From the NCBI GenBank assembly GCA_964527995.1, contig CAZGRP010000023.1, positions 624 to 64,623 on the forward strand: a stretch of DNA of 64,000 nt. Direction: 5' to 3'. The notes below the pieces were generated by a model. The model was given only the letters and a program-made list of their open reading frames with translations, made no database searches and was not told the origin of the DNA. This document shows, one piece after another, positions 43,371 through 61,555 of the stretch. Made by a program: the position numbers and the translations under genes. Every line of letters starts with the position of its first letter. Positions within the stretch are counted from its first letter, which is position 1. Source of the DNA: an uncultured Cytophagia bacterium. Lineage in GTDB: Bacteria > Zhuqueibacterota > Zhuqueibacteria > Oceanimicrobiales > CAZGRP01.

Positions 43371-43407
43371 GCCGATGGAAGCTGCACGAAACAAAAAGTG
43401 CAGTCGC

Positions 43408-44835: not shown

Positions 44836-44958
44836 AGCCGCCGCAGCGCGGGGCGGGAGAGAGGTGGTGCCGGTCGTGGGTTGCACTACAGGAGGCGGTT
44901 TCTGCGCGCCGAGCGCCATGTCGCAGGATCACATCCAATCCTTACGCGGGATTGTCTC

Positions 44959-45858: not shown

Positions 45859-46350
45859 TCAAGGGGCGGGCTTGGCCAGCGTGCGGATGAAAGCCACCAG
45901 GTCGTCGATATCACGCTGTTTCAGTGTATGGCCGTAGGCTGGCATCAGGATGGACTTGTTGACGCCCCGGCCTCCCTGTGCGATTACCTCATGTAGAGTC
46001 TGGTCGGAGATGGCGTTCATGTACTCGGTATCTGTCATGTCGTGGGGCCGCGGGTCCAGATTGTAGGAGTTGAAGCCGTCTCCCTGACCGCCGCTGCCGT
46101 GGCATACGGAACAATAGGTCTCGAACAGACGCATTCCCCGGCGCTCCGCATAGGTGTATTTCACGTAGGGATCCTGCTGTGCGACGGTGTCTTGTTGTGC
46201 CTGCGAGGTCATTGCCGATAGCGCCTGCTTGGGTGCCTCAGGCGACTTGCCGCACGAAAAGAGCGTTAGGACGAATAGCAAAGGGAAAATCAGATAGATG
46301 GCCATGCTGTTGAACCTCACTAACGATTGCAACTTCTTGACTCCAGGCAT
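45859..46350 (-). CDS. Monoheme cytochrome c lipoprotein (start 46350 or 46305)
   Basis: Lipobox LFSC, CSVCH heme motif and distal Met in SILMPAY. Confidence 0.88.
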   Translation of the reverse strand: MPGVKKLQSLVRFNSMAIYLIFPLLFVLTLFSCGKSPEAPKQALSAMTSQAQQDTVAQQDPYVKYTYAERRGMRLFETYCSVCHGSGGQGDGFNSYNLDPRPHDMTDTEYMNAISDQTLHEVIAQGGRGVNKSILMPAYGHTLKQRDIDDLVAFIRTLAKPAP

Positions 46351-46436: not shown

Positions 46437-46913
46437 TCAGACGGCCGGCAGGTGAAACTCGATCTCTTTCGCGAGCATGTGCTGCACTTGCATCAGTCGG
46501 GTCCAGATCATTGAAGCCAGGTTGGACATGATCGCGAACCCGAGCTGAGGATCCTGTTCACAGAGCGCCCGGAGTTCTCGCCCGGGAATCTGGAGCAGGG
46601 CGCAATCGGTGGCCGCATAGGCCGACAGCGTCAGCTTGTGGGGTGGCACCAGCGCGGACCATCCTATGAGGTCACCCCGGCCTTTCACTTCCACAAGAAT
46701 TTCCCGCTCGCTCATCATCACCGAGATCGGCTGGCACAGGTTGACGGAACCCGTGCCGACGACATACAGATGTGTGGCATCCTGGCCCTTTTCGAAGATC
46801 CTCTCGTCCTCTTTCACGGTGATGACCTGCGCTAGCGACCAGATGTTGCGTAGAGTTGCGTCTCCCAGCCCTTGGAAGACACTGCAGGCGCCGAGGAGTT
46901 CTTGGTCGAGCAT
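46437..46913 (-). CDS. Stand-alone cyclic-nucleotide-binding domain protein
   Basis: IFEKGQDATHLYVVGTGSV, GDLIGWSAL and SAYAATDC; no HTH. Confidence 0.85.
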   Translation of the reverse strand: MLDQELLGACSVFQGLGDATLRNIWSLAQVITVKEDERIFEKGQDATHLYVVGTGSVNLCQPISVMMSEREILVEVKGRGDLIGWSALVPPHKLTLSAYAATDCALLQIPGRELRALCEQDPQLGFAIMSNLASMIWTRLMQVQHMLAKEIEFHLPAV

Positions 46914-46936
46914 TGTTCTGCTCCTTGTTGAGGGGA

Positions 46937-48910
46937 TCAACCTCCGCCTTTCAGGGTCATCAAATAGGCGGCGACCTTCTTAGCCTCTTCCAACGTCATG
47001 CCTGACTTCGGTTCGATCGTCCCGGGTTTGTACCTTTGAGGATCCAGCAACCAGCGCACGATCCAGCCCGGCTTCAGGCGTTCGCCGCTCCGGTCGAGGA
47101 GCGGGCCGACATATCCGCCTTTCGAGCCGATCTGATGGCAGCTCTGGCAGCCGTACTTCTCCCAGTACAGAACACGGCCCTTCTCGATAGCGTCCGCATC
47201 CCCAAGGGGGATCCCTGGAACGTCGAGGCTGTCGTCCAGCAAGACCGTGTAGAAATAGTTGGCGAGTGTCTTCACTTCGTCCCCGGAGATGAACAAGTTG
47301 GGCATTCTCTCAGCCTGGATCGGCCGAATCGAATACGGTATTCTGAAGTACTCCTCGACCCAGTCACGTTGTAGCTGGCTGCCGACCCGCGTCAGGTCCG
47401 GGGCGATGTTGCCACCGGCTCCGTTGATTGAATGGCAGGCCAGGCAACTGTACTTGCGGAAAACCTGGCCTACGCGGCCCTGCGGTTTGAAGACCGGCTC
47501 GGGCTCACGTGGAACGACGTATTTGGGCGGAAGCTGATCATCCCTCTGAGCGAGCAACGCTGTCGTGATTGCCTGGATTTCGTCCTCAGAAAGATGATAC
47601 TGCGGCATGCGCAGCGTTTCCCGGAAGATCCGCGGAGTTCTCAGCTTTGTGGAAATGAAATCATAGAGCGTGTGTGGAATGCTGCTCTTGCCGAAGTCGA
47701 TCTCATAGATCTTCTTGCTGCCGACTCTAGTCAGCTCTGGTCCCAGGTTCTTCGTAACCTTGGGGTCGTTCAGCTTGTGGCAGCCGGCGCAGTTGTTTTG
47801 GTTGAAAAGAAGCAGGCCCCGCTCGTAGAAATTTGGCACAGGTTGATGCTGCACTGTATCCGGTGGAGCATCCCAGTCGATGAACTCGCTGGTGATGTAG
47901 GCCGTGAGGGCGGCAAGGTCTGTGTCACTAAAGCCGAACTGTGGCATCTCGACCCCTGGCATGAAACGCTTGGGGTTCTTGACGAAGTTGTAGATCCAGG
48001 CCGGACTGGCTTTGGAAGCCACCTTGCCAAGATCCGGCGCCAGGCGGCCACCACGCCCCTCCACGGCGTGGCAACTGATGCAGCGCGCTTCGCGGAACCG
48101 TGTTTTTCCTCGATCGATAAAGTCGGGGTCCTCCGAACGTTGCTTGTAGACCTCCGGCAGGGGATCCAGACGAGCGCCGTTGGGAAACCGCTTGAAGCTC
48201 ATCAAGAAGTCGGCCAGGACGTTGGCCTCCTCGTCGCCGAGATGGAAGGTCGGCATCTTCGTTTTCGGCCGGAATTGGGCGGGGTCTTTGAGCCAACCCA
48301 CCAGCCACGATCGCTTCACTTTGCTGCCGATGCCGTCCAGGTCAGGTGTAAACGATTTTGTGAAGCCGTCGAGGTTGTGGCAGGCGACACAATTGTACTC
48401 CTTGATCAGTTCTCGCCCGCGCGTGAGCACAGGCGCGTCGGGGACTTTCCGTTGCTGGTGGCAGGTTCCGCACGACGACTCCAGAAAGCGTTTCGGCAAG
48501 ATCGGTTCGTCCCAGAACGGTGTCGGTAAGTGGGCGTCGGCAAACTCGGTCGACCGTCCCTGGCCTTGATGGCAGGCGGTGCAGCCAAAGTTCTCGATGT
48601 TGTGATCGACAGTTGGATGAGTGCGAAAGGGCTCTGGGGCGTCGACCAGGCTTTTCTCCCGGAGTCCCAAATGGCAGGTGACACAACGGTCGACGCGATC
48701 CAGGTCCTTGATCCAAATCTGCTTTAGCCCCATTCGAACCGGCTTGATACGTACCGGTTGTTGCTCGACGAATTTATTGTACTCCTTCTGGTACTTGCGC
48801 CACTCGCGGAAGACATCCTTCAAGGGCGAAACCGCCAGTACGAAAAGAAAGAGCAGACTTGTGATCGCATAGATCGTTTTGAGCTTACCAAGTCCAGTCG
48901 AATTTCTCAT
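46937..48910 (-). CDS. Membrane-anchored octaheme cytochrome c
   Basis: N-terminal TM helix and eight CxxCH motifs (CVTCH, CTACH, CGTCH, CVACH, CISCH, CAGCH, CLACH, CQSCH). Confidence 0.92.
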   Translation of the reverse strand: MRNSTGLGKLKTIYAITSLLFLFVLAVSPLKDVFREWRKYQKEYNKFVEQQPVRIKPVRMGLKQIWIKDLDRVDRCVTCHLGLREKSLVDAPEPFRTHPTVDHNIENFGCTACHQGQGRSTEFADAHLPTPFWDEPILPKRFLESSCGTCHQQRKVPDAPVLTRGRELIKEYNCVACHNLDGFTKSFTPDLDGIGSKVKRSWLVGWLKDPAQFRPKTKMPTFHLGDEEANVLADFLMSFKRFPNGARLDPLPEVYKQRSEDPDFIDRGKTRFREARCISCHAVEGRGGRLAPDLGKVASKASPAWIYNFVKNPKRFMPGVEMPQFGFSDTDLAALTAYITSEFIDWDAPPDTVQHQPVPNFYERGLLLFNQNNCAGCHKLNDPKVTKNLGPELTRVGSKKIYEIDFGKSSIPHTLYDFISTKLRTPRIFRETLRMPQYHLSEDEIQAITTALLAQRDDQLPPKYVVPREPEPVFKPQGRVGQVFRKYSCLACHSINGAGGNIAPDLTRVGSQLQRDWVEEYFRIPYSIRPIQAERMPNLFISGDEVKTLANYFYTVLLDDSLDVPGIPLGDADAIEKGRVLYWEKYGCQSCHQIGSKGGYVGPLLDRSGERLKPGWIVRWLLDPQRYKPGTIEPKSGMTLEEAKKVAAYLMTLKGGG

Positions 48911-48916
48911 GATCGC

Positions 48917-49624
48917 TCAGTAGATTCCGGTTTTCCAGGGCCATACCCAGCTCCAGCCGGGTCCACGGAAGAAAGTGCCAATGATGGTCAACACCGCGGC
49001 TACAAACACGAACCACGTCATAATCCACTCTGCCAGAGAGCGTTGTCCCAGCCAGGCGATCCACCCCTTTCCCTCCGGCTTGAAGTATGGGATCAAGGCC
49101 AGGCCGTAGATGAGAAGGGTTGGAATCACGATGCCGAAGGCATCGAAAGCGCCGGTGGCTATCACAAAAAGCAAGACGACCGAGGTCAGGATCACAAACG
49201 TTCTTTGGCGGTCGTGGATCCACAGCCCCTCCCGCTTGATGTTGATCTCAAAGTAGGGAATCACTATGAGGGCTATGACCACCAGGCCCGGCAGGACGAT
49301 GCCGGCAACAAGCGGCGGAAAGGAGTGAAGCAGCTCCTGCAGCCCGAGAAAGTACCATGGCGCTTTGGCTGGATTTGGGGTATGTTGCGGATTGGCAAGC
49401 TCCTCCAGCGGTGCGTTGACGAAGAGCGCCAGCAGCGCCATGACCACCACCACGATCTGAAAACAAATGACCTCTCGAATCACCAGATGGGGGAAGGACA
49501 TCACCAGCTTCTCTGGTGGCTTCTCTTCCTCGAAGCGCGCCGGTACCTTCTTGGGCACCATGGCCAGCCGCTTCGGCACTTCTGCTGGATCCGTGTTGAC
49601 TTCGACTTGATATTTCTGGCTCAT
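48917..49624 (-). CDS. Cytochrome b subunit IV-like (C-terminal half of split cytochrome b)
   Basis: FPHLV.RE, APLEELANPQHTPNPAKAPWYFLGLQELL and IPYF; multiple TM helices. Confidence 0.87.
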   Translation of the reverse strand: MSQKYQVEVNTDPAEVPKRLAMVPKKVPARFEEEKPPEKLVMSFPHLVIREVICFQIVVVVMALLALFVNAPLEELANPQHTPNPAKAPWYFLGLQELLHSFPPLVAGIVLPGLVVIALIVIPYFEINIKREGLWIHDRQRTFVILTSVVLLFVIATGAFDAFGIVIPTLLIYGLALIPYFKPEGKGWIAWLGQRSLAEWIMTWFVFVAAVLTIIGTFFRGPGWSWVWPWKTGIY

Positions 49625-49720: not shown

Positions 49721-50431
49721 CTACCGCAACCCGCCGTCCTTCCGGATTCGCCAGAAGTGGATTCCGATGAACAGCGAAAGAAGACCTGGGAGGATCACCG
49801 AGTGTAGGACGTAGAACCGCACCAGGGCGTTCTCGCCGATCAGGTGGCCGCCCAGCAACAGATACCGTAGCTTCTTGCCGATGAATGGCACGTAGGCCGC
49901 GATGTTCGTCCCCACCGTGACCGCCCAGTAGGCAAGCTGGTCATAGGGGAGCAGATAACCCGTGTAGCTAAGCAGTAGCGTGAGGAGAAAAAGGACGACG
50001 CCGATCACCCAGTTGAACTCCCGCGGCGGGCGGTAGGCGCCTGCATAGAACACCCGCAGCATGTGGAGAAAAACGACCAGGACCATGGCGTGGGCCGCCC
50101 AGCGATGCATGTTGCGGAGAAAGAGGCCGGAGGAGACCACGTACTGTAGGTCCTTCATGTCGTTGTACGCTTCGGGGATCGCCGGGTGGTAGTAGAGCAT
50201 CAGCAGAATGCCGCTGACCGTGAGGATCACGAAGAGAAAAAAGCTGGTCATGCCGAGGTAGAGCGTGTAGCTGAAGCGAATGGCCTTCAACCGCACCTTC
50301 ACTGGCTGAATGTGCAGAAACAGGCTGTTGAAGATGACCAGGGAGCGGTCGAGATTGGTGCGAATTGGCAGGCCGGTGCGGAAGATCGACCGCCACGCTC
50401 TTGACTGGGTTAGACGCTGCCACAGGGTCAT
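49721..50431 (-). CDS. qcrB: Cytochrome b6-like N-terminal subunit of a Rieske/cyt b complex
   Basis: [45 protein letters not shown] and [10 protein letters not shown] (four heme-ligating His). Confidence 0.93.
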
Positions 50432-50672: not shown

Positions 50673-51191
50673 TCAGACCCTCAGGATCATCTCGTCCTCG
50701 CTGACCGTCTCAGAAGTATCCACGACCAGCTCGCTGTCTTCCACTTTTATGCGAAAGCGATCGAGGTCTCTCGGTGCCGGTCCGCGAATCACCTCACCGG
50801 TCTTGGTAAATCTGCTTCCATGGCAGGGGCAGGCGATGATTCCCTCTGGATGGCCTGGCACGCCGTCAGGCTTCCACTGAGTCGTGCAACCAAGATGAGT
50901 GCAGATGGCGGACACGGCCCATACGTAGCCCTCCTTGGCTCGGAAAACGAAGACACGATACTCCGGGTTGAACACGACGCTGCCCGGTGGAATCTCCTGG
51001 ATGGATCCGGCCCGGAACCGGCTTGGTGGCTCGAGGACGACATTCGGCCAGAGGTACTTCCAGGTGACGATGCTGCCTCCCACCAGAGTGGCGGCAACCG
51101 CTGTGTTGCCTGCTTTGGCGAAGAATTCTCTGCGGCTCAGGGCCTTTCGCTCGTGATGATCTGTTTCTGGCTGCTTTTCCGGTTCCTTCAT
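50673..51191 (-). CDS. qcrA: Rieske [2Fe-2S] protein with Tat anchor
   Basis: SRREFF Tat motif, CTHLGC and CPCHGS. Confidence 0.94.
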   Translation of the reverse strand: MKEPEKQPETDHHERKALSRREFFAKAGNTAVAATLVGGSIVTWKYLWPNVVLEPPSRFRAGSIQEIPPGSVVFNPEYRVFVFRAKEGYVWAVSAICTHLGCTTQWKPDGVPGHPEGIIACPCHGSRFTKTGEVIRGPAPRDLDRFRIKVEDSELVVDTSETVSEDEMILRV

Positions 51192-53035
51192 ACGCGCGTC
51201 TCCGACTGTTCAAATGCTTGCATCGTAATTGTCCCAACAGGGCAGCGCTTGGCGCACAACCCGCAACGGATGCAGATCTCCTCGTCCTTGATCATGACCA
51301 TGCCGCGACCGCTCGCTCGTTCCAGCTCCGCACCGAGGTCGTCCTCAAGGAGCGAGTCGGTGGCCTTGCCCATCACCAGTTCCGAAAGCGGCACGATCTC
51401 GATACAATTCTCTGGGCAGACGTCTGCACAGCCGCCACAAAGGATGCACTCGGTTCCCTTGAGCGGATCGCCTTCGAAGATCGTGTTTACCCAGCAACGA
51501 AGGCAGCGGCTTCCCTCCAGGACCGCCTGCACCTCGTTGTATCCAAGCTCGACCTGGGCGATGCCGACGCGACGTTCCAGCGGCAGAGCAGGGATCGGCT
51601 GACGGCGGATGTGCGTGTACCCTGGGATGGGCTGGTAGTCGGCCGTGTCGTAGAGGGTGATCTTGTACTCAGGTTCGGGGTGTTGTTCACCGCTCAGGTA
51701 ATTGTCGATGGAGCGGGCCGCCCGGCGCCCCTCTGCCACCGCGGTGATGGCAATGCGCGGGCCGAAGGCCAGATCGCCGCCGGCGTAGATCCCGGGGGCC
51801 GTTGTCGCCATCGTTTCCGGATCCACCTTGATCGTGCCTCGCGGTGTCGTCTCGATACCATCCTCCGGGGTGAGCCAGGAGAGGTCAGACGACTGGCCGA
51901 TCGCAATGATCACGGTATCGGCCTCGATCACTTTCTCGGTGCCCGGAATGAACTTGGGATTGAAGCGGCCGTTCTCATCGAAGACCGACGCCACATCGAT
52001 GGTCTCCACACCCACGACGCGGCCGTCCTGCGTGATAATGCGCTTCGGGCCGTGGCGATTATGGATGCTGATCCGCTCTTCCTCGGCTTCCTCGACCTCC
52101 TCAGGATCGGCCAGCATCTCTTCTCTTGCCTCCAGGACGATCATATCGACCTTCTTGGCACCGAAGCGCACCGCCGAGCGGGCCACATCCAGCGCAGCCG
52201 TGATGTCGGAGGTGGTCACCGGCTCTCCGGTCTCAAGGCGTGCTGCAGTTCGTGCCACATCGAAGGCCACGTTGCCGCCGCCGATGACGACGATTTTCTC
52301 GCCCAGCTCCACCTTGTAGCCGAGATTGACGTTCAGCAGGAAGTCGATGGCATTGAGGACGCCGTCGGCGTGGATACCATCGACATTCAGCGTGCGGCTC
52401 TTGTGAGCGCCGATGGCCAAGAAGATGGCCTCATAGCCATTGTCGCGCAGGTCGCTCAGGGTGAAGTCGCGCCCCAGCGCTTTGCCAAGCTTCAGCTCCA
52501 CGCCGAGGCTCAAGATCAGGTTGATCTCGAGCCGGATGAGTTCGCGCGGCAATCGGTACTCGGGGATTCCCAGGCGGAGCATACCCCCGGGCACATCATG
52601 CGCCTCGAACACCGTGACGCCATACCCCAGAAGGGCCAGGTCATGGGCGCACGACAGACCCGCAGGGCCAGCCCCGATGACGGCCACCCATTTGTTTTTG
52701 GGCTGAATCGCCGGCCCCAGGCTTTCGCGCAGCTTTGTCATGTCGAGCATGCTCTCCACCCCATAGCGCTCACAAACAAAGCGCTTGAGGGCGCGGATCG
52801 CGATGGGCTGGTCGAGCTGGCCGCGGCGGCAGGCGTCCTCACACGGCGCTGCACAGATGCGGCCACAGATGGAGGCGAACGGATTCGGAGCTCGAGCCAC
52901 GCGGTAGGCCTCTTCGTAGCGGCCTTGCGCGATCAGATTCACGTAGCGGCCTGCTTCGGTGTGTACCGGGCAGGCCCACATACACGGGAAGTTACGCTCG
53001 AGCCAATCTGGATTGACCAACTTAAAAGAAGACAT
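51188..53035 (-). CDS. Cytoplasmic NAD(P)/FAD-dependent Fe-S oxidoreductase (GltD/NfnB/SudA-like) with C-terminal 2x[4Fe-4S]
   Basis: CMWACP...CGRICAAPCEDAC, IGAGPAG, GGGNVAFD, CILCGGCADVCP and CIRCGLCAKRCP; its stop overlaps the Rieske start (ATGA). Confidence 0.9.
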   Translation of the reverse strand: MSSFKLVNPDWLERNFPCMWACPVHTEAGRYVNLIAQGRYEEAYRVARAPNPFASICGRICAAPCEDACRRGQLDQPIAIRALKRFVCERYGVESMLDMTKLRESLGPAIQPKNKWVAVIGAGPAGLSCAHDLALLGYGVTVFEAHDVPGGMLRLGIPEYRLPRELIRLEINLILSLGVELKLGKALGRDFTLSDLRDNGYEAIFLAIGAHKSRTLNVDGIHADGVLNAIDFLLNVNLGYKVELGEKIVVIGGGNVAFDVARTAARLETGEPVTTSDITAALDVARSAVRFGAKKVDMIVLEAREEMLADPEEVEEAEEERISIHNRHGPKRIITQDGRVVGVETIDVASVFDENGRFNPKFIPGTEKVIEADTVIIAIGQSSDLSWLTPEDGIETTPRGTIKVDPETMATTAPGIYAGGDLAFGPRIAITAVAEGRRAARSIDNYLSGEQHPEPEYKITLYDTADYQPIPGYTHIRRQPIPALPLERRVGIAQVELGYNEVQAVLEGSRCLRCWVNTIFEGDPLKGTECILCGGCADVCPENCIEIVPLSELVMGKATDSLLEDDLGAELERASGRGMVMIKDEEICIRCGLCAKRCPVGTITMQAFEQSETRV

Positions 53036-53093: not shown

Positions 53094-53693
53094 CTATCGT
53101 TTGAGCAGGAAGTTCACCTCCACCTGGCCCTTGGCAGGCACGGTCACCTCCTGCGGCTTCGTTTTCAACTTCTCGTGCCAGACCTTCAAAGTGTACTTGC
53201 CAGCCGGCACGTCCTTGATGACGAACTTGCCCGTCTTGTCGGTCTTGGCGAAGTACGGGTTCTGCAGCACCACCACATAGGCTTCCATTTCCGGGTGGAC
53301 GTTGCAGAGGATCACCGCCACGCAATCGGGGTTCTTGAAGGTGTAAGGACGCTTCTGGCCCTTTGGCCAACTCCCGAGATTGAACTTGCCGGCGCACTTG
53401 TCGGGCGTGAAGACGTTGTGCAAAACGTCGTCACTGTTCTGGAATTCGACGGTCGTCCCGGCAAGAATAGGGAGCACATGCGGGACGAACGCCATATTCT
53501 TCTGGTCCATGAGCGCCTTCTCTTTGGGCGCCGGAAACGTCTTCCCAGGGATCTTTTCGATATAGACCACAGCGTCGGCGGCGCTACGAGCGCCTTTGAC
53601 AGTGATTGTACCGACGATATCGCCTGCCATGGCCGTCTGCCAGAAAGCACCCAGCAGAAGTGCGGCCGTGAAAGCGCTGATGATTTTCTTCAT
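53094..53693 (-). CDS. Periplasmic cupredoxin-like / carboxypeptidase-regulatory-like domain protein with type-1 Cu ligand set
   Basis: GGAGG RBS, signal peptide (AMA-G), DQKNMAFVPHV, LHNVF and CNVHPEM. Confidence 0.8.
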   Translation of the reverse strand: MKKIISAFTAALLLGAFWQTAMAGDIVGTITVKGARSAADAVVYIEKIPGKTFPAPKEKALMDQKNMAFVPHVLPILAGTTVEFQNSDDVLHNVFTPDKCAGKFNLGSWPKGQKRPYTFKNPDCVAVILCNVHPEMEAYVVVLQNPYFAKTDKTGKFVIKDVPAGKYTLKVWHEKLKTKPQEVTVPAKGQVEVNFLLKR

Positions 53694-53722: not shown

Positions 53723-55006
53723 TTAGAATCCTACAACGAGAGCTAGCTCAATCTCCCCGAATTCGAATTCTCCTTCGCCTTCTGCTGCCTCCTTTTCGAT
53801 TTCGGCTGACAGCACTGCCTTGAGGTTGGCCCTGATGAGGGCGGTCAGGCCGGGTACGAAGCGCTGGTCTGTCTCCGCGGCGCCTCCAATGCTGGAACGG
53901 AAACGCTCATAGCGAAGATTCGGCAACAGCCAGGGGTAGAGCACATAGGTTCCCTCAACCATGATATGGGTGCCGGTGCCGTCCCCACTCTGACTGATGA
54001 GCGGCCGGTCGTCATGTTGTACTGCCACAAGGCCGGAGAAGTTGAAGCGCTCGTAGTAGGCGTCGATGCTGCCGCCGAACTGGTTAAAGTTGTCTTTGAC
54101 TCCTTCGCCTAGCGTGGCGCGGCCGTTGTAGAAGAAGGCATCGAGGCGGACAGAGTTGTCTTGCCAAGGTTGCGAGGCTCCGGCAGTGGCTTCTACGATC
54201 TTACCATCGAGGCGGAGCCCACCGAACTTGTAACCGGCATGGAGGTAGAAATCCTTGTCGCCGTTGGGAACGTTCTGCCGACCTTCTACGAGACCCACCG
54301 AATAGATGAAGCGCGCGTCGCCAAGCAAACCCCTTACCTCGAACCCCTTCTGGGGGCGATCGAAGTTCCAGTTGTTGTTGCCGAACGGTTTGCTGGCATA
54401 CCAGTAGCGCGAGGTCAGCCGGCGCATGTTGCTGAAGGGCGTCACGAAGGGTATGATCTTTCCAACTTTCAGGCTGAGGGCGTTGTCGGGCAGGATATTG
54501 TCGAAGCCGATGTGGGCCATCTCCAGCTCGACTTCCCCGCCTTCGATGGCGACCTCGCTGAAGAAGGAGATGTTGTCGGTGAAATTGCCGCCGGATATCA
54601 CCCCGACTTCGCTGGGCATGTTATCGAAGACGAGTTTCGGCTCGCCCTCGGGCGCATTCGGCCTGTAAGGCACTTCGGACTCCACGACCACCGCAAGGGG
54701 TACGCTGCTGGGCAGGGCGTTGGGCCAGATGGCATCGGGCCAGACCCGTTTGTATGCCTCCGAACCCATTTTCACCGGCTTCTCCTGCGCCTTCTCGGCA
54801 TCTGCCTCTGCGCCTCCGGGGAACTGGTAGCCGTTCATCTGAAAAGCGCGCCCGAAAGCGTTCAGCTTCGGAAAGGCGGCGTGACAGGTTGCACAGCTCG
54901 TTTTGTACTTGCGGGCCCAGGCCGGAATTGCGCTGGCATCGCTGGTGCTCCAGATGAGCCCGACCGCAATACCCACAAGGACGATGACCGTCTTCTTGGA
55001 TCCCAT
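53723..55006 (-). CDS. Cyc2-like fused monoheme cytochrome c-porin
   Basis: Signal peptide, then AIPAWARKYKTS-CATCH-AAFPKLNAFGRAFQMNGY matching the Cyc2 N-terminal signature; about 380-aa amphipathic beta-barrel region; C-terminal Phe. Confidence 0.8.
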   Translation of the reverse strand: MGSKKTVIVLVGIAVGLIWSTSDASAIPAWARKYKTSCATCHAAFPKLNAFGRAFQMNGYQFPGGAEADAEKAQEKPVKMGSEAYKRVWPDAIWPNALPSSVPLAVVVESEVPYRPNAPEGEPKLVFDNMPSEVGVISGGNFTDNISFFSEVAIEGGEVELEMAHIGFDNILPDNALSLKVGKIIPFVTPFSNMRRLTSRYWYASKPFGNNNWNFDRPQKGFEVRGLLGDARFIYSVGLVEGRQNVPNGDKDFYLHAGYKFGGLRLDGKIVEATAGASQPWQDNSVRLDAFFYNGRATLGEGVKDNFNQFGGSIDAYYERFNFSGLVAVQHDDRPLISQSGDGTGTHIMVEGTYVLYPWLLPNLRYERFRSSIGGAAETDQRFVPGLTALIRANLKAVLSAEIEKEAAEGEGEFEFGEIELALVVGF

Positions 55007-55081: not shown

Positions 55082-55098
55082 ATACAAAACAGGTGCCA
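55082..55098 (-). promoter_or_regulatory. Putative sigma-54 (-24/-12) promoter of the cytochrome-porin operon
   Basis: Minus strand TGGCAC-CTGTT-TTGTA (GG-N10-GT; one mismatch at the -12 GC), 76 bp upstream of ATG 55006. Confidence 0.5.
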
Positions 55099-55446: not shown

Positions 55447-56850
55447 CTATCCTTTGCGGAAATCTTGCGATCGGATGCCGTGCTTTTTCATCAGCCTCTG
55501 GAAGCTTTGGCGCTCGATGCCTGCGGCCTGTGCCGCGGCGGTGACGTTGCCACGTGTGGCTTTCAGGCGCTCGATGACAAACTTGCGCTCGAAAGCATCC
55601 ACGACGACCCGGCGGGCGTCTGCAAGCTTCTCGTGGACGATAGGGATGTCGATGGTTTGCCGGGCCTGTTTGCGGAACAGGTGCGGTGGGAATGAATCGG
55701 CGGTCAGTACGTCGCTCTTCTCCAAGACTACGGCGCGCTCGATGAGATTCTCCAACTCGCGCACGTTCCCTGGATAGCGATAGCTGGAGAGGGCCTCCAT
55801 CACCTCGGGGCTGATGCTGTGAATGCCCTTGCCGAAGCGCTGCCGGTACTTTGACAGGAAGTAGTTGGCCAGCACCGGGATGTCGCCGACCCTCTGGCGC
55901 AGCGGTGGCAGTTTGATGGCGATGACATTGAGGCGAAAATAAAGATCCTCGCGGAAGTTACCGCGCTTGATCTCGTATTCGAGATCGCGATTGGTTGCCG
56001 AAATGAACCGTGCCCGCACCGGGATGGTTTGGTTGCCGCCGACACGCTGGTAGCAGCGTTCTTCGACCACCCGCAACAGCTTTTGTTGCAACTTGGGGGG
56101 CATGTCGCCGATCTCGTCGAGGAAAAGTGTTCCCTCGCCGGCGAGCTCGAACTTTCCCTCTTTGCGCGCATCAGCTCCGGTGAATGCTCCCTTCTCGTGG
56201 CCGAAGAGCTCGCTTTCAAGCAGCGTCTCGGGCAGCACGGTGCAGTTGATGGCAACGAACGGTTCGTCGTGGTGCTGGCCGCTGTTGTGGATGGCGCGGG
56301 CGACGAGTTCCTTCCCGGTGCCGCTCTCCCCAAAGATGATGACGTTGGTCGAATTGGGCGTTGTGGTCACCGCACCAATCGTTTTGTAGACCTCCTGCAT
56401 GGACGGATCGCTGCCGATGAGCTCGTATTCGACGATCGGGTGGCTCAGCTTCGCTCGCAGGTCGCTCACTTCCCGCCGCAACCGCACCGTTTCCAGCGCG
56501 CGTTCGGTGAGAGCACGCACCTTGTCGACATGCAGCGGCTTGGTCAGGTATTCGTAGGCGCCGAGCTGTACGGCGCGGATCGCCGTTTGCATGGTGCCGT
56601 AGCCAGTGATCACGATCACCGGCAGGTTCAGTCCGTCACTCTTGATCTTCTCGAGCACAGCGAGTCCATCCATTTCCGGCATGGCCACATCCAAAAAGAG
56701 GAGCGCGGGTTTCTCTATTCGGAGCTTCTCGAGTGCCTGCGGACCGCTGTCAGCAGAAATCACCCTGTAGCCGCTCCGCTCGAGAACCTTTCGAAAGGCG
56801 AAAACGATGCTTTCGTCGTCGTCGGCGACCATGATCTTTTCTTTGGGCAT
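55447..56850 (-). CDS. Sigma-54-dependent response regulator (NtrC/AtoC family)
   Basis: Receiver domain (VADDD, LDVAMP, KP), GESGTGKE, GAFTGA, FLDEIGD and a Fis-type HTH. Confidence 0.96.
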   Translation of the reverse strand: MPKEKIMVADDDESIVFAFRKVLERSGYRVISADSGPQALEKLRIEKPALLFLDVAMPEMDGLAVLEKIKSDGLNLPVIVITGYGTMQTAIRAVQLGAYEYLTKPLHVDKVRALTERALETVRLRREVSDLRAKLSHPIVEYELIGSDPSMQEVYKTIGAVTTTPNSTNVIIFGESGTGKELVARAIHNSGQHHDEPFVAINCTVLPETLLESELFGHEKGAFTGADARKEGKFELAGEGTLFLDEIGDMPPKLQQKLLRVVEERCYQRVGGNQTIPVRARFISATNRDLEYEIKRGNFREDLYFRLNVIAIKLPPLRQRVGDIPVLANYFLSKYRQRFGKGIHSISPEVMEALSSYRYPGNVRELENLIERAVVLEKSDVLTADSFPPHLFRKQARQTIDIPIVHEKLADARRVVVDAFERKFVIERLKATRGNVTAAAQAAGIERQSFQRLMKKHGIRSQDFRKG

Positions 56851-56857
56851 TCGCTTC

Positions 56858-59311
56858 TCAGCTCCGATCGCTTGTTCCCGCACGCGAATCATACAAAGGC
56901 AAGAGTAGCGTAAATGTGCTGCCTTTCCCGACTCGACTCTTTACTCTGACGACACCGCCATGCTCATTGACAACCCGCTTGACAAAGGAGAGTCCAAGTC
57001 CGGTGCCGTTCGTCTTGGTTGTGAAGAATGGATCGAAGATGCGAGCCATGTGCTCCTCCGGAATGCCACAACCTGTGTCTGCGACCTCGACTCTCAGCAC
57101 GCGCGTGCCTTTCTTGAGGATGATCTCCTGAACCGCGACTCCTTCGGTGTCGGCCGCCATGCCGACTTCGCCGAGGTGGCGGAGCTGTTTCGTGAGTGTA
57201 TGCAGGCTCGAGCGCACGACGATCTTGCCTCTTTCGCGGATGGCCTGAGAAGCATTCAACAGCAGATTGAAGACCGCCTCTTTCATGTGGTCGCGGTCGA
57301 GCGGGATCAGCGGCACGTGCTCATCGAACTGCATTTCCAGCTCGATGCCGCTGCGAGCCACCTGATGCCGGGCGAACTCGACTGAATCGGTGAGGATGTC
57401 GTTGATGTTCGCCGGCTTCTTGTCGAGTGGCGCCGGCCGGGCCAGTTGCAGCAAATCGTCGACGACACGTTCCATGCGGTCGATCGAATCGAGGGCCACG
57501 CCGAGCGACTCGCGGTCCGATGGCTCCAGGCCTTCCGTCTCCGCCAGCAGTTGCAGAATCATCTGCACGGATGTGAGCGAGTTTCTCATCTCGTGGGCGA
57601 TGACGGCGGCGATCTCCCCGGTTGCAGCCAGTCGCTCGGAGCGGATGAGCTGGTCCTGAAGGCGCTTGCGCTCGGTGACGTCGGTTATGATCTCCAGGAC
57701 AGTGCTCACGCGGCCATCCGTCTTCAGCGGAACCGCCACATGCTCCAGGTAGCGCTCCTCTCCTTCGGCTCCGATACGTCGGACCAGTTGCGTCTCCATC
57801 CTGCCCGACTCGAATACACGGGCCGACGGACAAGAGGCGCAGGTCTCCATGTTGCCCATGACCTCATAGCAGCGGCGGCCGAGCAGGTCCTCGACTGGAG
57901 TGCCGGTAATGGAGCTGAGAGCGGCGCTGGCTGACAGAATTCGATGGTCGCGGTCCAGCAGCAGGAAGCCGCTTGGCACATTGTCGAGGATGACCTGGAG
58001 CTTGTTCTTCTGATCTCTCAGCTCCCGGGTGCGCTCCTGTACCATCTGTTCCAGGCGTTCGCGGTGCTGTGCCAGCTCGGCCTCGCGCTGTTCGAGCGAC
58101 TGTGCCATGAAATTGAACTGGCGGGCGAGTTCCTGAATCTCGTCGTGGGTCCTGATATCGACGCGGGCATGGAAGTCTCCCCTGGCCACTTCCTCGATCT
58201 CGCGCTGCAACTTCTGGATCGGGTCGGTGAACTGCCGGGTGGCGAGATAGGCAAGTGCGAGAGATACAAGCAGAAACAATCCGAGCAGACCCCAGAACAC
58301 CCTCTTGAATTTGGTTACTGGCGCAAAGATCGCTTCCTTGGGCACACTCTTTAGAAGGATGTACTGGCTGCCGGTCGTTCCGGCAGTGGTGAAAAGGGGA
58401 ACATGCGCTATCATCGCCCGGCTGCTTTCCAACAGCAGTGCAGAATTCGGATTCAGGAGCCTGTTGGTCAGCTCCGGGCCAAAATCGTGCTTCAAGTTTT
58501 CCGTAGCCTTGGAGGCGAGAAGGTGGTTCCACTCCTTCTTCTTTTCGGAATGGTAGAGGTAATACCCTTCGGCGTTGACCAGCATCACCGTGCCTGCGGA
58601 GATGTGGGGTGTCTTCTGTTCGATGATCTTGAAGAACCTCTTCGCGTAGATCTGCAGAATCAGGACACCGGAGAATTCCGGATCGTACACCGGGTAGACG
58701 CAACTGATAGCCGGCAGGGAACTGCTCGTCTGCACGTTCCACAATTCGACGGGCACGAAGGTGGCGCGGTTGGGTGGGATTCTTCCCGCAAGATAGAGGT
58801 AGAAGCGAGTTCCGGTGCGGTTCAGCTCGTCCCGAGAAAGAACGTAATATTCCCCGCTCCTCTTCTCAATGTTGAAAACCTCAACGCCGGTGGGATCGAT
58901 GAATTTGATCTGGTACAAGATGCCCTTGCGCCGGGCAAAGGCGCGAAGTTCCTGCAAAAGCTCGAGATCAGCGACCGACCGCGCCGCGGATGGATGTCTT
59001 GCCGTCGTCTGCAGGAAGCGCCGGAAAGATGCAGAGGCGGTGATAAAGTGGCCATTGTCTTCCATTTCCCCGAAGAAGGCTCCCAGGCGTTCTTTGATGG
59101 TGAGGAGGTCGTCGGTCAGATTCTCGACGGCGATTCGGCGCAGGGAGCTCACGTTGTAGGAAATCGCCAAGAGGCCGACGATGAGCACCGGCAGGATCGA
59201 CAGGCCGGCAAAGGCCACGACCAGCTTGCCGCGTATCTTCAGTCTGAGCGGTTTCTGAAGATCCAAACCCATAGCCATCCGGAGTGAGTGCAACCTTTTC
59301 TTTCGCCGCAA
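56858..59311 (-). CDS. Sensor histidine kinase (TM-Cache-like-TM-HAMP-PAS-HisKA-HATPase); start may be 59278/59272
   Basis: Two TM helices around a periplasmic domain, HAMP (DEIQELARQFN), PAS, AHEMRNSL, NLLLNA, DTGCGI and GTGLGL. Confidence 0.93.
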   Translation of the reverse strand: MRRKKRLHSLRMAMGLDLQKPLRLKIRGKLVVAFAGLSILPVLIVGLLAISYNVSSLRRIAVENLTDDLLTIKERLGAFFGEMEDNGHFITASASFRRFLQTTARHPSAARSVADLELLQELRAFARRKGILYQIKFIDPTGVEVFNIEKRSGEYYVLSRDELNRTGTRFYLYLAGRIPPNRATFVPVELWNVQTSSSLPAISCVYPVYDPEFSGVLILQIYAKRFFKIIEQKTPHISAGTVMLVNAEGYYLYHSEKKKEWNHLLASKATENLKHDFGPELTNRLLNPNSALLLESSRAMIAHVPLFTTAGTTGSQYILLKSVPKEAIFAPVTKFKRVFWGLLGLFLLVSLALAYLATRQFTDPIQKLQREIEEVARGDFHARVDIRTHDEIQELARQFNFMAQSLEQREAELAQHRERLEQMVQERTRELRDQKNKLQVILDNVPSGFLLLDRDHRILSASAALSSITGTPVEDLLGRRCYEVMGNMETCASCPSARVFESGRMETQLVRRIGAEGEERYLEHVAVPLKTDGRVSTVLEIITDVTERKRLQDQLIRSERLAATGEIAAVIAHEMRNSLTSVQMILQLLAETEGLEPSDRESLGVALDSIDRMERVVDDLLQLARPAPLDKKPANINDILTDSVEFARHQVARSGIELEMQFDEHVPLIPLDRDHMKEAVFNLLLNASQAIRERGKIVVRSSLHTLTKQLRHLGEVGMAADTEGVAVQEIILKKGTRVLRVEVADTGCGIPEEHMARIFDPFFTTKTNGTGLGLSFVKRVVNEHGGVVRVKSRVGKGSTFTLLLPLYDSRAGTSDRS

Positions 59312-61343: not shown

Positions 61344-61393
61344 CTCTGGGGGTTGTGATCTCTGGATCGTAGTAGGTTTCAACCTTCGCCGAG

Positions 61394-61555
61394 CTGGCGT
61401 GGGAAGAACATGATCACGTCTTACCATGCTTTGCCGGTTACTCCGTCTCGCGGCGACGCCCAGTCAGCGGCAAAGGCAGGATCGAAGTAGCGCTCGGGGA
61501 CCTGGAACTGCCGGCGGTGCAAATGGATTGTGTGCGGCAAGGTCACCCCCATCAT
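61394..61555 (-). pseudogene. Multicopper oxidase C-terminal fragment
   Basis: MMGVTLPHTIHLHRRQFQVPERYFDPAFAADWASPRDGVTGKAW*(TAA 61421-61423)DVIMFFP resembles HPxHxHG-xxFQV...GWKDTV of CueO-type oxidases. Confidence 0.5.

What the first reader, a model, noticed from the sequence alone, without database searches (positions are those of the whole stretch)
53723..55006. Cyc2-signature cytochrome-porin fusion outside a recognisable iron-oxidiser context
Seen: residues 26-48 read AIPAWARKYKTSCATCHAAFPKL, followed by NAFGRAF..NGY; the heme motif is at 54881-54895. Established: the Cyc2 signature is AxPxFAR[Q/K][T/Y], then CxxCH, then PxL, and Cyc2 from clusters 1-3 includes verified Fe(II) oxidases. 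The F>W change and neighbourhood suggest a divergent member (inference). The host has formate dehydrogenase and acyl-CoA catabolism, so this could indicate cryptic lithotrophy or extracellular electron transfer in a heterotroph/mixotroph.
Basis: partly seen in the sequence, partly recalled or inferred. Interest (0 to 1): 0.78.

Follow-up and report, generated by a model that had tools for sequence, protein, structure and literature searches.

The report
Cyc2-type haem-porin heading a respiratory operon
The gene encodes a real outer-membrane pore fused to a one-haem cytochrome of the iron-oxidising Cyc2 family. It is not an orphan: it opens a conserved operon that pairs it with a blue copper protein and a quinone-linked membrane complex. 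It is therefore an electron gate whose direction (iron oxidation or electron export) is still open.

Summary
ORF 55006-53723 (minus strand, 427 aa) has a signal peptide and the motifs AIPAWARKY-KTS-CATCH-AAF-PKL. It has one haem site (54881-54895), a predicted 16-strand porin barrel and a C-terminal Phe.

By homology and fold it belongs to the Cyc2 fused cytochrome-porin family. Its subfamily is very large, unannotated and found mainly in Ignavibacteriota/Bacteroidota, Calditrichota and similar phyla. F>W is a recurrent conservative variant, not a sign of special divergence. I could not place it among Cyc2 clusters 1-3 because no reference sequences were obtainable. Indirect hints point to cluster 3, whose function is the least certain.

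The "no recognisable context" reading is wrong. The gene is first in a sigma-54/two-component-controlled operon. An amicyanin-like blue copper protein follows it directly, as in 73 of 77 related loci. Next come an NAD(P)-binding Fe-S flavoprotein, Rieske, split cytochrome b, an octahaem cytochrome and a monohaem lipoprotein cytochrome. At least 32 of 50 related loci carry this module.

I read it as an outer-membrane one-electron gate for a soluble redox species, probably Fe2+/Fe3+. I slightly favour Fe(II) oxidation over electron export.

Cyc2 homologues in non-iron-oxidisers are already reported. I found no description of the conserved copper partner and its link to a complex-III-type module.

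The parts
53723..55006 (-). Cyc2-type fused monohaem cytochrome c-porin gene (427 aa, P0001)
   Evidence: ORF and translation. No Pfam or NCBIfam model matches. Large homologous family. AlphaFold2 model with pLDDT 76 and 16 strands. Foldseek matches to 16-strand porins.
54929..55006 (-). Sec signal peptide (residues 1-26, cleavage after ASA)
   Evidence: Read from the sequence. One hydrophobic segment at residues 6-24. Cleavage falls directly before the xPxF/W motif, as in Cyt572 (AANA/YPGFARKYNF, PMC13741234).
54905..54931 (-). Cyc2 signature AIPAWARKY (W in place of the consensus F)
   Evidence: Published consensus is AXPXFAR[Q/K][T/Y].
54881..54895 (-). Single haem c attachment site CATCH (residues 38-42)
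   Evidence: Invariant C38, C41 and H42 in alignment A1.
54863..54871 (-). PKL (the PXL motif downstream of the haem site)
53726..54697 (-). 16-strand beta-barrel porin domain (residues ~104-427), ending in Phe
   Evidence: DSSP on the AlphaFold2 model gives 16 strands between residues 104 and 426. Foldseek matches: OmpT 6ehe at 1.7e-11, VhChiP, Omp32, OprP 2o4v at 7.4e-9 and OprO 4rjw at 3.6e-8.
55083..55098 (-). Sigma-54-like -24/-12 element TGGCACctgttTTGTA, about 77 nt upstream of the ATG
   Evidence: Sequence. Similar elements lie at the same relative position in 14 of 83 related loci, against about 3 expected by chance, mostly in the window's own and Calditrichota-type loci. This is a consensus match only; function is inferred.
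53094..53693 (-). Periplasmic blue (type 1) copper protein with a C-terminal CarboxypepD_reg beta-sandwich; the conserved partner
   Evidence: Pfam: CarboxypepD_reg, plus a sub-threshold Copper-bind match. Ligands H92, C130, H133 and M136 (loop C-x2-H-x2-M) are 92-100% conserved in 76 homologues. AlphaFold2 pLDDT is 94. Foldseek top hits are amicyanin, pseudoazurin and plastocyanin. It lies directly downstream of the Cyc2-like gene in 73 of 77 loci.
51188..53035 (-). Cytoplasmic GltD-like NAD(P)-binding Fe-S flavoprotein
   Evidence: Pfam Pyr_redox_2, Fer4_20 and Fer4_7. NCBIfam PRK12771 'NAD(P)-binding protein' at 470 bits, cut-off 516. No signal peptide or transmembrane segment. Its stop overlaps the Rieske start.
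50673..51191 (-). Tat-exported Rieske [2Fe-2S] protein
   Evidence: Pfam Rieske. SRREFF twin-arginine motif. Best PDB sequence matches are b6f-type Rieske proteins and two entries (9rk3, 9rk4) whose 'Similar to Rieske...' names suggest anammox proteins; that origin is not verified.
49721..50431 (-). Four-helix cytochrome b6-type subunit
   Evidence: Pfam Cytochrome_B. NCBIfam ExtP at 270.6 bits, cut-off 290. Four hydrophobic segments.
48917..49624 (-). Subunit IV / cytochrome b C-terminal-like membrane protein
   Evidence: Pfam Cytochrom_B_C. NCBIfam ExtQ at 68 bits, below its cut-off.
46937..48910 (-). Membrane-anchored octahaem cytochrome c
   Evidence: Eight CXXCH motifs and one N-terminal anchor. 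Pfam Cytochrom_C x5 and multihaem families. NCBIfam ExtS at 108 bits, cut-off 100, covering only part of the protein.
46437..46940 (-). Cyclic-nucleotide-binding domain protein inside the operon
   Evidence: Pfam cNMP_binding. Absent at this position in L081 and L083 but present elsewhere in some related loci. Its role is unknown.
45859..46350 (-). Monohaem cytochrome c lipoprotein
   Evidence: One CXXCH and the lipobox LFSC. Pfam Cytochrome_CBB3. Conserved at the operon end in relatives.
55447..56892 (-). Sigma-54-dependent (NtrC-type) response regulator directly upstream
   Evidence: Pfam Response_reg, Sigma54_activat and HTH_8. Upstream on the same strand in 48 of 71 related loci.
56858..59311 (-). 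Sensor histidine kinase (Cache-like periplasmic domain, HAMP, PAS)
   Evidence: Pfam. The kinase plus regulator pair lies upstream in 39 of 60 loci. Cache-type kinases also flank the pair in loci that lack the Rieske module.

Best explanation
The ORF encodes a genuine Cyc2-type outer-membrane protein. An N-terminal monohaem cytochrome c domain carries the Cyc2 signature with W for F. It is fused to a 16-strand porin barrel. The protein belongs to a very large, unannotated 'PxF/W-[A/S]RKY-[K/R]TS-CxTCH' subfamily. That subfamily is found mainly in Ignavibacteriota/Bacteroidota, Calditrichota, Myxococcota, Acidobacteriota, Omnitrophota and similar lineages.

It works as the outer-membrane end of a dedicated electron-transfer chain. 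A small soluble redox species enters the pore and exchanges one electron with the haem. Fe2+/Fe3+ is the most likely species, by analogy with the three tested family members. The haem exchanges electrons with the amicyanin-like blue copper protein encoded immediately downstream. That protein connects, through the monohaem lipoprotein and octahaem cytochromes of the operon, to a Rieske/cytochrome b complex. The complex carries a cytoplasmic NAD(P)-binding Fe-S flavoprotein. A Cache-type kinase, a sigma-54 activator and a sigma-54-like promoter control the operon.

Shown: the sequence features, fold, family, copper ligands and conserved gene order.
Inferred: the substrate, protein contacts and direction.

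I favour inward flow, meaning Fe(II) oxidation that feeds a high-potential copper/cytochrome pool. My odds are about 0.45-0.5 for inward flow, about 0.3 for outward flow and about 0.2 for other roles. Every tested Cyc2 is an Fe(II) oxidase, and blue copper carriers are typical of Fe(II)-oxidising chains, not of known metal-reducing conduits.
For: Family and fold:
- Signature, single CXXCH, PKL, signal peptide and terminal Phe.
- Conserved cytochrome domain and a large family.
- Homology of the cytochrome domain to distant Cyc2-type proteins of Ralstonia, Caballeronia and Methylocystis (AVPAFARQTGxxCxxCH...PEL). Keffer 2021 names Ralstonia and Burkholderia among Cyc2-bearing genera.
- A 16-strand barrel resembling OprP/OprO and general porins, as published for Cyc2.

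Copper partner:
- Directly downstream in 73 of 77 loci.
- Type 1 copper ligands conserved.
- Confident cupredoxin fold closest to amicyanin.

Operon:
- The same gene order occurs in relatives at ~70% identity.
- At least 32 of 50 genome loci from several phyla carry the flavoprotein, Rieske and cytochrome b genes.
- Where the Rieske module is missing, other quinol-linked modules take its place. L078 has an ACIII-like set. L057 has a cupredoxin, a polyferredoxin and a COX2-like protein.

Regulation:
- A sigma-54 activator and a sigma-54-like promoter.

Established knowledge:
- Cyc2 of A. ferrooxidans, Cyc2PV-1 and Cyt572 oxidise Fe(II) (PMC8406198, PMC13741234).
- A. ferrooxidans passes electrons from Cyc2 to the blue copper protein rusticyanin and on to a bc1 complex (PMC2754497, PMC13741234).
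Against: - There is no experimental or expression evidence. The three small metatranscriptomes of the source study hold nothing from the operon.
- The literal published motif is not met at one position (W for F).
- Placement in clusters 1-3 could not be tested.
- The cytochrome domain is poorly modelled (pLDDT below 50 for residues 21-100), so the haem position and sixth ligand are unknown.
- The inner-membrane partners are all quinol dehydrogenases in their canonical direction. For the architecturally similar anammox complexes, the NAD(P) flavoprotein is thought to take the low-potential electron of quinol oxidation (PMC12954380). That needs an oxidant, not a reductant, at the periplasmic end and so argues for outward flow.
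- I could not check whether the genome has a terminal oxidase or a carbon-fixation pathway, because whole-genome tools were shut.
Confidence: 0.6

Rival explanations
1. Electron export. The haem-porin is the terminal reductase of the operon's chain. The Rieske/cytochrome b complex oxidises menaquinol. The low-potential electron goes through haems b and the flavoprotein to NAD(P)+. The high-potential electron goes Rieske -> octahaem cytochrome -> monohaem cytochrome/blue copper -> Cyc2-type haem. There it reduces a soluble high-potential oxidant that enters the pore, such as chelated Fe(III), Mn(III) or a metalloid oxyanion.
For: - The inner-membrane module has the same architecture as the anammox Kustd1480-85 and Kuste4569-74 complexes: b6-type cytochrome b, subunit IV, a multihaem cytochrome and an NAD(P) oxidoreductase. 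For those, quinol-driven NAD(P)+ reduction coupled to a high-potential acceptor is the published proposal. For Kustd1480-85 the acceptor is unknown (PMC12954380).
- The cytochrome b, subunit IV and cytochrome c score against NCBIfam ExtP, ExtQ and ExtS of the Geobacter extHIJKLMNOPQS cluster. That cluster joins an OprP-like porin to a Rieske/cytochrome b core and is linked to selenite/tellurite and Fe(III) reduction (PMC5877670).
- The alternative partners in other loci (ACIII-like, NapH-like polyferredoxin) are also quinol oxidisers.
- Cluster 3 Cyc2 occurs in iron reducers.
- Ignavibacteriaceae with Cyc2 homologues are known Fe(III) reducers (PMC6344600).
Against: - No tested Cyc2 family member works as a reductase.
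- Blue copper proteins usually sit near +250 to +400 mV and are not known in metal-reducing conduits.
- A single haem inside a porin cannot reach solid Fe(III) oxides.
- The anammox mechanism is itself only a proposal.
- The ExtP and ExtQ scores are below the curated cut-offs, and the ExtH, ExtI, ExtJ, ExtK and ExtL equivalents are absent.
Confidence: 0.3
2. Envelope metal-stress device. The pair oxidises or reduces toxic reduced metals such as Fe2+ or Cu+ at the cell surface. It acts as part of a metal-responsive regulon, not as an energy metabolism.
For: - In the window, a CzcA-type RND pump (61930-63996) and a P1B heavy-metal ATPase (59388-61427) lie directly upstream on the same strand.
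- In L081 a complete OEP/CzcB/CzcA set precedes the kinase. In L083 a multicopper oxidase does.
- The kinase and regulator score well against the Zn/Pb-responsive ZraS/ZraR, among other NtrC-type pairs.
Against: - The metal-efflux neighbours are seen only in the window's close relatives, not across the family (one search examined operon genes only).
- The ZraSR similarity is generic for NtrC-type systems; AtoSC and NtrC score higher.
- A nine-gene respiratory module with a Rieske/cytochrome b complex is costly for detoxification alone.
Confidence: 0.08
3. Ordinary porin that has kept a vestigial or non-redox haem motif, or a miscalled gene.
For: No curated Pfam or NCBIfam model recognises it. 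The barrel alone resembles general diffusion porins.
Against: [quoted passage not shown] C38, C41 and H42 are invariant.
- All 83 loci keep exactly one CXXCH.
- The gene has a strong ribosome-binding site.
- It has a conserved redox-protein neighbourhood.
Confidence: 0.02

Closest known systems
Cyc2 fused cytochrome-porins (Cyc2 of Acidithiobacillus ferrooxidans, Cyc2PV-1 of Mariprofundus ferrooxydans, Cyt572 of Leptospirillum; clusters 1-3 of McAllister 2020 and Keffer 2021)
   Same: - Signal peptide cleaved just before the motif.
- AxPx[aromatic]AR[K][Y] signature, a single CXXCH and PXL.
- About 430 aa with a 16-strand OprP/OprO-like barrel.
- The cytochrome part is conserved and the porin part is not.
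- The 'ARKY' form matches the Edman N-terminus of Cyt572, YPGFARKYNF.
   Different: - W replaces the consensus F, so the literal published screen would drop it.
- It sits in an uncharacterised subfamily of non-classical hosts.
- No activity data exist.
- Cluster placement was not tested.
- Its partner is an amicyanin-like copper protein with an extra beta-sandwich domain, not rusticyanin, Cyc1 or Cyt579.
Acidithiobacillus ferrooxidans Fe(II) chain (rus operon cyc2-cyc1-cox-rus plus the petI bc1 operon)
   Same: An outer-membrane Cyc2, a periplasmic blue copper protein, c-type cytochromes, a Rieske/cytochrome b complex and a link to NAD(P). These are the same functional parts list.
   Different: - Here everything is in one operon.
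- The copper protein is unrelated in detail to rusticyanin.
- The b complex is a split b6-type with an octahaem cytochrome and its own NAD(P) flavoprotein, instead of bc1 plus reverse complex I.
- No oxidase is encoded in the operon.
Anammox Rieske/cytochrome b complexes Kustd1480-1485 and Kuste4569-4574 (Kartal 2013 proposal; PMC12954380)
   Same: b6-like four-helix cytochrome b, a subunit IV-like protein, a hexa- or octahaem cytochrome c in place of cytochrome f, and a cytoplasmic NAD(P) oxidoreductase subunit. The Rieske box 2 has Ser kept and Phe in place of Tyr, as in Kustd1480.
   Different: - Here the complex is encoded with an outer-membrane haem-porin and a blue copper protein.
- No HAO-like subunit is present.
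- The host is not an anammox bacterium.
- Sequence relatedness of the flavoprotein to the anammox subunit was not tested.
Geobacter sulfurreducens extHIJKLMNOPQS cluster (PMC5877670)
   Same: One cluster joins an OprP-like outer-membrane porin to a Rieske (ExtO), a cytochrome b (ExtP), ExtQ and a lipoprotein cytochrome (ExtS). The window's cytochrome b, subunit IV and cytochrome c give their best NCBIfam scores to ExtP, ExtQ and ExtS.
   Different: - ExtI has no haem.
- The Ext cluster has a rhodanese, a selenoprotein cytochrome and 10- and 12-haem cytochromes, but no copper protein and no NAD(P) flavoprotein.
- The ExtP score is below its cut-off.
Porin-cytochrome complexes MtrCAB, MtoAB and PioAB
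   Same: They move electrons across the outer membrane using a beta-barrel and c-type haem.
   Different: Those use a separate decahaem protein threaded through a 26-strand barrel and can reach solids. This is one polypeptide with one haem and 16 strands.

Membership tests
Cyc2 fused cytochrome-porin family | N-terminal signal peptide, then a c-type cytochrome domain with exactly one CXXCH | tested here: met
   Signal peptide at residues 1-26. One CXXCH at residues 38-42.
Cyc2 fused cytochrome-porin family | Consensus AXPXFAR[Q/K][T/Y] just upstream of CXXCH (Keffer 2021) | tested here: inconclusive
   The sequence reads AIPAWARKY, so 6 of the 7 specified positions are met and F is replaced by W. 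The literal filter PXFAR[Q/K][T/Y] used to build the published tree would exclude it. The protein is nested, with 97% SH-aLRT support, among homologues that carry the literal motif. The spacing to CXXCH equals that of Ralstonia- and Methylocystis-type Cyc2 homologues.
Cyc2 fused cytochrome-porin family | PXL motif just downstream of CXXCH | tested here: met
   PKL at residues 46-48. P46 and L48 are at least 90% conserved.
Cyc2 fused cytochrome-porin family | Length of at least 365 aa (FeGenie rule) | tested here: met
   427 aa.
Cyc2 fused cytochrome-porin family | C-terminal 16-strand beta-barrel porin resembling OprO/OprP | tested here: met
   AlphaFold2 gives 16 strands at residues 104-426, with pLDDT mostly 75-95 there. 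Foldseek probability is 1.0 to 16-strand porins, including OprP 2o4v and OprO 4rjw.
Cyc2 fused cytochrome-porin family | Placement inside cluster 1, 2 or 3 of the published phylogeny, or a FeGenie HMM match | not testable with these tools
   No reference Cyc2 sequences or FeGenie HMMs could be obtained. Three indirect hints point to cluster 3. The ARKY form is shared with Cyt572. Published FeGenie surveys report mostly cluster 3 Cyc2 in communities whose Cyc2-bearing MAGs include Ignavibacteriales, Zixibacteria and Omnitrophica. Identity to Ralstonia-type homologues is confined to the cytochrome domain.
Cyc2 fused cytochrome-porin family | Fe(II) oxidase activity and a suitable haem potential | not testable with these tools
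   Needs expression and biochemistry.
NAD(P)-linked Rieske/cytochrome b complexes of the anammox type (operon context) | b6-type four-helix cytochrome b plus subunit IV, a multihaem cytochrome c instead of cytochrome f or c1, and a cytoplasmic NAD(P) oxidoreductase subunit encoded together | tested here: met
   Pfam and NCBIfam assignments, four hydrophobic segments in cytochrome b, eight CXXCH motifs, and a flavoprotein with no signal peptide. A physical complex and its activity were not tested.
Geobacter Ext (selenite/tellurite reduction) cluster | Equivalog-level matches to ExtP and ExtQ, and presence of ExtH, ExtI, ExtJ, ExtK and ExtL | tested here: not met
   ExtP scores 270.6 against a cut-off of 290. 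ExtQ scores 68 against 150. ExtS scores 108 against 100, but over only part of a 657-aa octahaem protein. No rhodanese or haem-free ExtI-type porin is present in the operon.
Porin-cytochrome complexes (MtrAB, MtoAB, PioAB) | A separate periplasmic decahaem cytochrome inserted in a ~26-strand barrel | tested here: not met
   One polypeptide, one haem and 16 strands.

The most novel reading that the evidence does not exclude
The haem-porin and its blue copper partner may be the missing high-potential outlet of an electron-bifurcating, NAD(P)H-generating Rieske/cytochrome b complex. Menaquinol oxidation would be split. One electron would be lifted to NAD(P)+ in the cytoplasm. The other would leave the cell through octahaem cytochrome -> copper protein -> Cyc2-type haem to a soluble extracellular oxidant. 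If so, cluster-3-like Cyc2 proteins of Ignavibacteriota, Calditrichota and similar bacteria would be reductases, not iron-oxidation markers. These complexes would also gain their first non-anammox physiological context.
Probability: 0.2. Interest if true: 0.85.

Novelty: new variant of a known kind. Interest (0 to 1): 0.52.

Why it matters
Cyc2 is widely used as the marker gene for microbial iron oxidation, through FeGenie and metagenome surveys. Its homologues outside classical iron oxidisers, especially cluster 3, are the least understood part of the family. This locus shows that one very large subfamily is almost always paired with a dedicated blue copper protein. The pair is usually wired to a complex-III-type quinone module, here one with an NAD(P) flavoprotein. 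That gives concrete, testable partners and two clear alternatives: Fe(II) uptake or electron export. It also warns against counting such genes automatically as evidence of lithotrophic iron oxidation. Finally, it offers a new context for the puzzling NAD(P)-linked Rieske/cytochrome b complexes known from anammox bacteria.

Tried and rejected
Cluster placement. I tried several routes to reference Cyc2 sequences (PV-1, A. ferrooxidans, Cyt572) and none worked:
- The Keffer 2021 supplements hold only identity tables and legends.
- A plasmid tblastn gave Ralstonia, Caballeronia and Methylocystis homologues. These served as an outgroup but are not cluster-labelled.
- A homology search seeded with the Ralstonia protein returned only Burkholderiales and Rhodanobacteraceae relatives.
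- Cluster-member look-ups of distant representatives gave no informative names.
- A text search for motif strings gave only the 10-residue Cyt572 N-terminus.
- The DeMMO supplements do not tie cluster labels to single MAGs.

Other dead ends:
- Pfam and NCBIfam have no model for the protein.
- The PDB holds no Cyc2 structure.
- Expression: the three metatranscriptomes of the same study are tiny and hold nothing from the operon.
- Whole-genome questions (terminal oxidases, carbon fixation, nitrate reductase) could not be asked because the genome search was shut (note).

Rejected ideas:
- F>W is not a marker of a divergent lineage, because it arose at least twice.
- The locus is not a Geobacter Ext cluster, because the scores are below cut-off and parts are missing.
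- It is not the Caldithrix abyssi Nap-linked Rieske/cytochrome b locus, which has a different context.
- A strict sigma-54 consensus is not present family-wide. It is found only in the window's own and Calditrichota-type loci.
Full report
**1. Observation**

The ORF lies at 55006..53723 on the minus strand and encodes 427 aa. A good ribosome-binding site (GAGGAGG, 55020-55014) precedes the ATG. The protein starts with a Sec signal peptide ending in ASA. The only CXXCH (residues 38-42) maps to 54881-54895. The protein ends in ...LALVVGF.

The published definition was quoted correctly. Keffer et al. 2021 (PMC8406198) give AXPXFAR[Q/K][T/Y] upstream of CXXCH and PXL downstream. They also describe a 16-strand OprO/OprP-like barrel and a minimum length of 365 aa. 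They state that cluster 3 is functionally the most uncertain.

**2. Family**

No Pfam or NCBIfam model matches the protein. A word-seeded search gave several hundred full-length relatives, all called 'hypothetical protein'. The nearest are 76% and 71% identical; one is from a 'Calditrichaeota' MAG. An exhaustive HMMER search of 1.84 billion representatives found 2428 clusters at E<=1e-3, 650 at E<=1e-10 and 193 at E<=1e-30.

A genome scan confirmed 275 relatives. The best reach 44% identity. They come from MAGs of Bacteroidota/Ignavibacteriota, Calditrichota, TA06, Nitrospinota, Acidobacteriota, Myxococcota, Omnitrophota, Latescibacterota and others.

In a 34-sequence alignment the first ~100 residues are the most conserved. 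The consensus there is AIPAFARKYKTSCATCHxxFPKLNAFGEAF...GYQFPGG...FPDAIWP, and C38, C41 and H42 are invariant. All 83 loci examined have exactly one CXXCH. Of these, 77 carry F and 6 carry W in the motif.

In a maximum-likelihood tree the window protein forms a 100%-supported clade with three metagenome contigs. That clade sits inside a 97%-supported group of Bacteroidota, Ignavibacteriota, Myxococcota and Acidobacteriota sequences that carry F. The other W-bearing sequences sit in a different 99%-supported clade. F>W is therefore a recurrent conservative change.

Distant Cyc2-type proteins of Ralstonia, Caballeronia and Methylocystis were found on plasmids. They share the cytochrome domain with identical spacing: AVPAFARQTGxxCxxCHxxFPELxxFGRxFKxxGY, 48% identity over 40 residues. 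Little of the barrel is shared. That is the pattern published for Cyc2 clusters.

I could not obtain cluster-labelled reference sequences, so placement in clusters 1-3 is untested. Three hints point to cluster 3:
- The 'ARKY' form equals the Edman N-terminus of Cyt572, YPGFARKYNF, which also follows the signal-peptide cleavage site directly (PMC13741234).
- FeGenie surveys report mostly cluster 3 Cyc2 in communities whose Cyc2-bearing MAGs include Ignavibacteriales, Zixibacteria and Omnitrophica (PMC8478452).
- Identity to Ralstonia-type homologues is confined to the cytochrome domain.

**3. Fold**

The AlphaFold2 model built on the alignment has mean pLDDT 76 and pTM 0.75. It shows 16 beta-strands between residues 104 and 426. 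The cytochrome domain (residues 21-100) is below pLDDT 50, as expected without haem. Foldseek against the PDB returns only 16-strand porins at probability 1.0. These include OmpT, OmpU, VhChiP, Omp32, OprP 2o4v and OprO 4rjw. No Cyc2 structure exists in the PDB.

**4. Context**

The gene is not isolated. On the minus strand the order is:
- a Cache/HAMP/PAS histidine kinase (59311-56858);
- a sigma-54-dependent response regulator (56892-55447);
- a 440-nt gap with a sigma-54-like element, TGGCACctgttTTGTA (55098-55083);
- the Cyc2-type gene;
- a 199-aa exported protein (53693-53094);
- a GltD-like NAD(P)-binding Fe-S flavoprotein (53035-51188);
- a Tat-exported Rieske protein (51191-50673);
- a four-helix cytochrome b6-type subunit (50431-49721);
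- a subunit IV-like protein (49624-48917);
- a membrane-anchored octahaem cytochrome c (48910-46937);
- a cNMP-binding protein (46940-46437);
- a monohaem cytochrome c lipoprotein (46350-45859).

The same order is present on contigs whose Cyc2-type protein is ~70% identical.

Across the 83 related loci:
- The 199-aa protein lies directly downstream in 73 of 77 loci with enough sequence.
- The flavoprotein, Rieske and cytochrome b genes follow in at least 32 of 50 loci. A few more have Rieske and cytochrome b without the flavoprotein.
- The sigma-54 regulator lies upstream in 48 of 71 loci.

Where the Rieske module is absent, other arrangements appear:
- An ACIII-like set (c7-type cytochrome, molybdopterin subunit, Fe-S subunit, NrfD, cytochrome c) in L078.
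- A cupredoxin, a polyferredoxin and a COX2-like protein in L057.
- Only Cache-type kinases in L066, L076 and L027.

**5. The partner is a blue copper protein**

Its Pfam Copper-bind match is just below threshold. However, H92, C130, H133 and M136 are 92-100% conserved in 76 homologues, with the amicyanin-type C-x2-H-x2-M loop. The AlphaFold2 model is very confident (pLDDT 94). Its first domain matches amicyanin, pseudoazurin and plastocyanin. A CarboxypepD_reg-type beta-sandwich follows. The invariant core of this family's system is therefore 'haem-porin plus type 1 copper protein'.

**6. The inner-membrane module**

The cytochrome b scores 270.6 bits against NCBIfam ExtP (cut-off 290). The subunit IV-like protein scores 68 against ExtQ. 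The octahaem protein scores 108 against ExtS, over only part of its length. These are the b-complex parts of the Geobacter extHIJKLMNOPQS cluster. That cluster likewise joins an OprP-like porin to a Rieske/cytochrome b core and is linked to selenite/tellurite and Fe(III) reduction (PMC5877670).

In architecture the module equals the anammox complexes Kustd1480-85 and Kuste4569-74: a b6-type cytochrome b, subunit IV, a multihaem cytochrome c and a cytoplasmic NAD(P) oxidoreductase. For those, quinol oxidation is proposed to send one electron up to NAD(P)+ and the other to a high-potential acceptor (PMC12954380). The window's Rieske protein finds two PDB entries among its three best matches whose names suggest anammox Rieske proteins. 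I did not verify their origin.

**7. Mechanism**

Shown: a haem-porin of the Cyc2 family, a dedicated periplasmic type 1 copper protein, c-type cytochromes and a quinone-level complex are co-encoded and co-conserved under one sigma-54-type control region.

Inferred: the pore admits a soluble redox species. By analogy with the three tested family members this is probably Fe2+/Fe3+. The haem exchanges an electron with it, and the copper protein links the haem to the cytochromes and the Rieske centre.

The direction is open.
- For Fe(II) oxidation: every tested Cyc2 is an Fe(II) oxidase. High-potential blue copper carriers are hallmarks of Fe(II)-oxidising chains, such as rusticyanin and sulfocyanin, and are unknown in metal-reducing conduits.
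- For export: all the alternative inner-membrane partners are quinol dehydrogenases. The NAD(P) flavoprotein makes thermodynamic sense only if the periplasmic branch ends in an oxidant. FeGenie lists cluster 3 as 'possible iron reduction' because Geobacter and Rhodoferax carry it (PMC7005843). Ignavibacteriaceae with Cyc2 homologues are iron reducers (PMC6344600).

My odds are about 0.45-0.5 inward, 0.3 outward and the rest for metal-stress or other roles.

No expression evidence is available. The source is a microbial-mat metagenome.

**8. Comparison and novelty**

Cyc2 homologues in non-classical hosts are already in print. The gene as such is a new member of a known kind.

I found no description of three things in the searches made:
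- the near-obligatory pairing of this subfamily with an amicyanin-like copper protein;
- its frequent wiring to an NAD(P)-linked Rieske/cytochrome b complex or to ACIII-like modules;
- the sigma-54/Cache-kinase control.

I therefore class the whole as a new variant of a known kind: the Cyc2 - blue copper - bc complex logic of A. ferrooxidans in a compact and differently built form. Earlier notes of this scan flagged the same operon and similar Cyc2-Rieske links in other genomes. I treated these as leads and re-derived the facts here.

**9. Verdict**

Interest is moderate. The gene alone is ordinary for this scan and for metagenomics. Its conserved partners make the open question 'what do cluster-3-like Cyc2 proteins do?' directly testable.

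Noticed in passing
window 59388-63996 (-); L081 307-6274; L083 47-1132: A CzcA-type heavy-metal RND pump and a P1B (Zn/Cd/Pb-type) ATPase lie directly upstream of the kinase on the same strand. In L081 a full OEP/CzcB/CzcA set holds that place, and in L083 a multicopper oxidase does. This may link the operon to metal handling in this lineage.
   Followed up: partly
L052, L074, L080 versus the window: The cytochrome b and flavoprotein of some Calditrichota-type loci are 72-77% identical to the window's, while their Cyc2-type proteins are only 35-36% identical and fall in the other major clade. The haem-porin seems to have been exchanged between two paralogous types while the rest of the module stayed.
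   Followed up: partly
L078 11056-17618: In a Calditrichota MAG the haem-porin/copper pair is followed by an ACIII-like set (c7-type cytochrome, molybdopterin subunit, Fe-S subunit, NrfD, multihaem cytochrome c) instead of the Rieske/cytochrome b module.
   Followed up: partly
L057 5879-9153: In an Omnitrophota MAG the pair is followed by a PilJ-like protein, a second cupredoxin, a Fer4_5 polyferredoxin membrane protein and a COX2-like copper protein. This is the 'copper-polyferredoxin-copper' trio noted elsewhere in this scan.
   Followed up: no
window 46437-46940 (-): A stand-alone cNMP-binding protein sits between the octahaem and monohaem cytochrome genes and overlaps the octahaem stop by 4 nt. 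It is absent at this position in the closest relatives (L081, L083) but present at other positions in several related loci (L036, L040, L041, L045).
   Followed up: no
window 42378-45834 (+): An HDOD protein, a histidine kinase and a second HDOD protein form a small signalling cluster next to the operon end. The same trio is next to the operon in L083.
   Followed up: no
window 50597: The Logan contig of the source metagenome lacks one base here, in the Rieske-cytochrome b intergenic gap. It also shows about 20 single-base differences across the operon but none inside the Cyc2-type gene. This is strain-level variation.
   Followed up: no
window 2-3902 (+), 21624-22796 (+): The window holds a molybdopterin oxidoreductase fragment with a 4Fe-4S partner, and an acyl-CoA dehydrogenase.
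   Followed up: no
P0001 residues 250-263 (window ~54218-54259): An invariant DKDxYxHxxYKxGG stretch (K251, Y254, H256, K260, G263) lies in the barrel. Invariant R195, R232, E241, R365, E367 and R392 may line the pore or help bind the haem or metal. Their positions in three dimensions were not examined.
   Followed up: no
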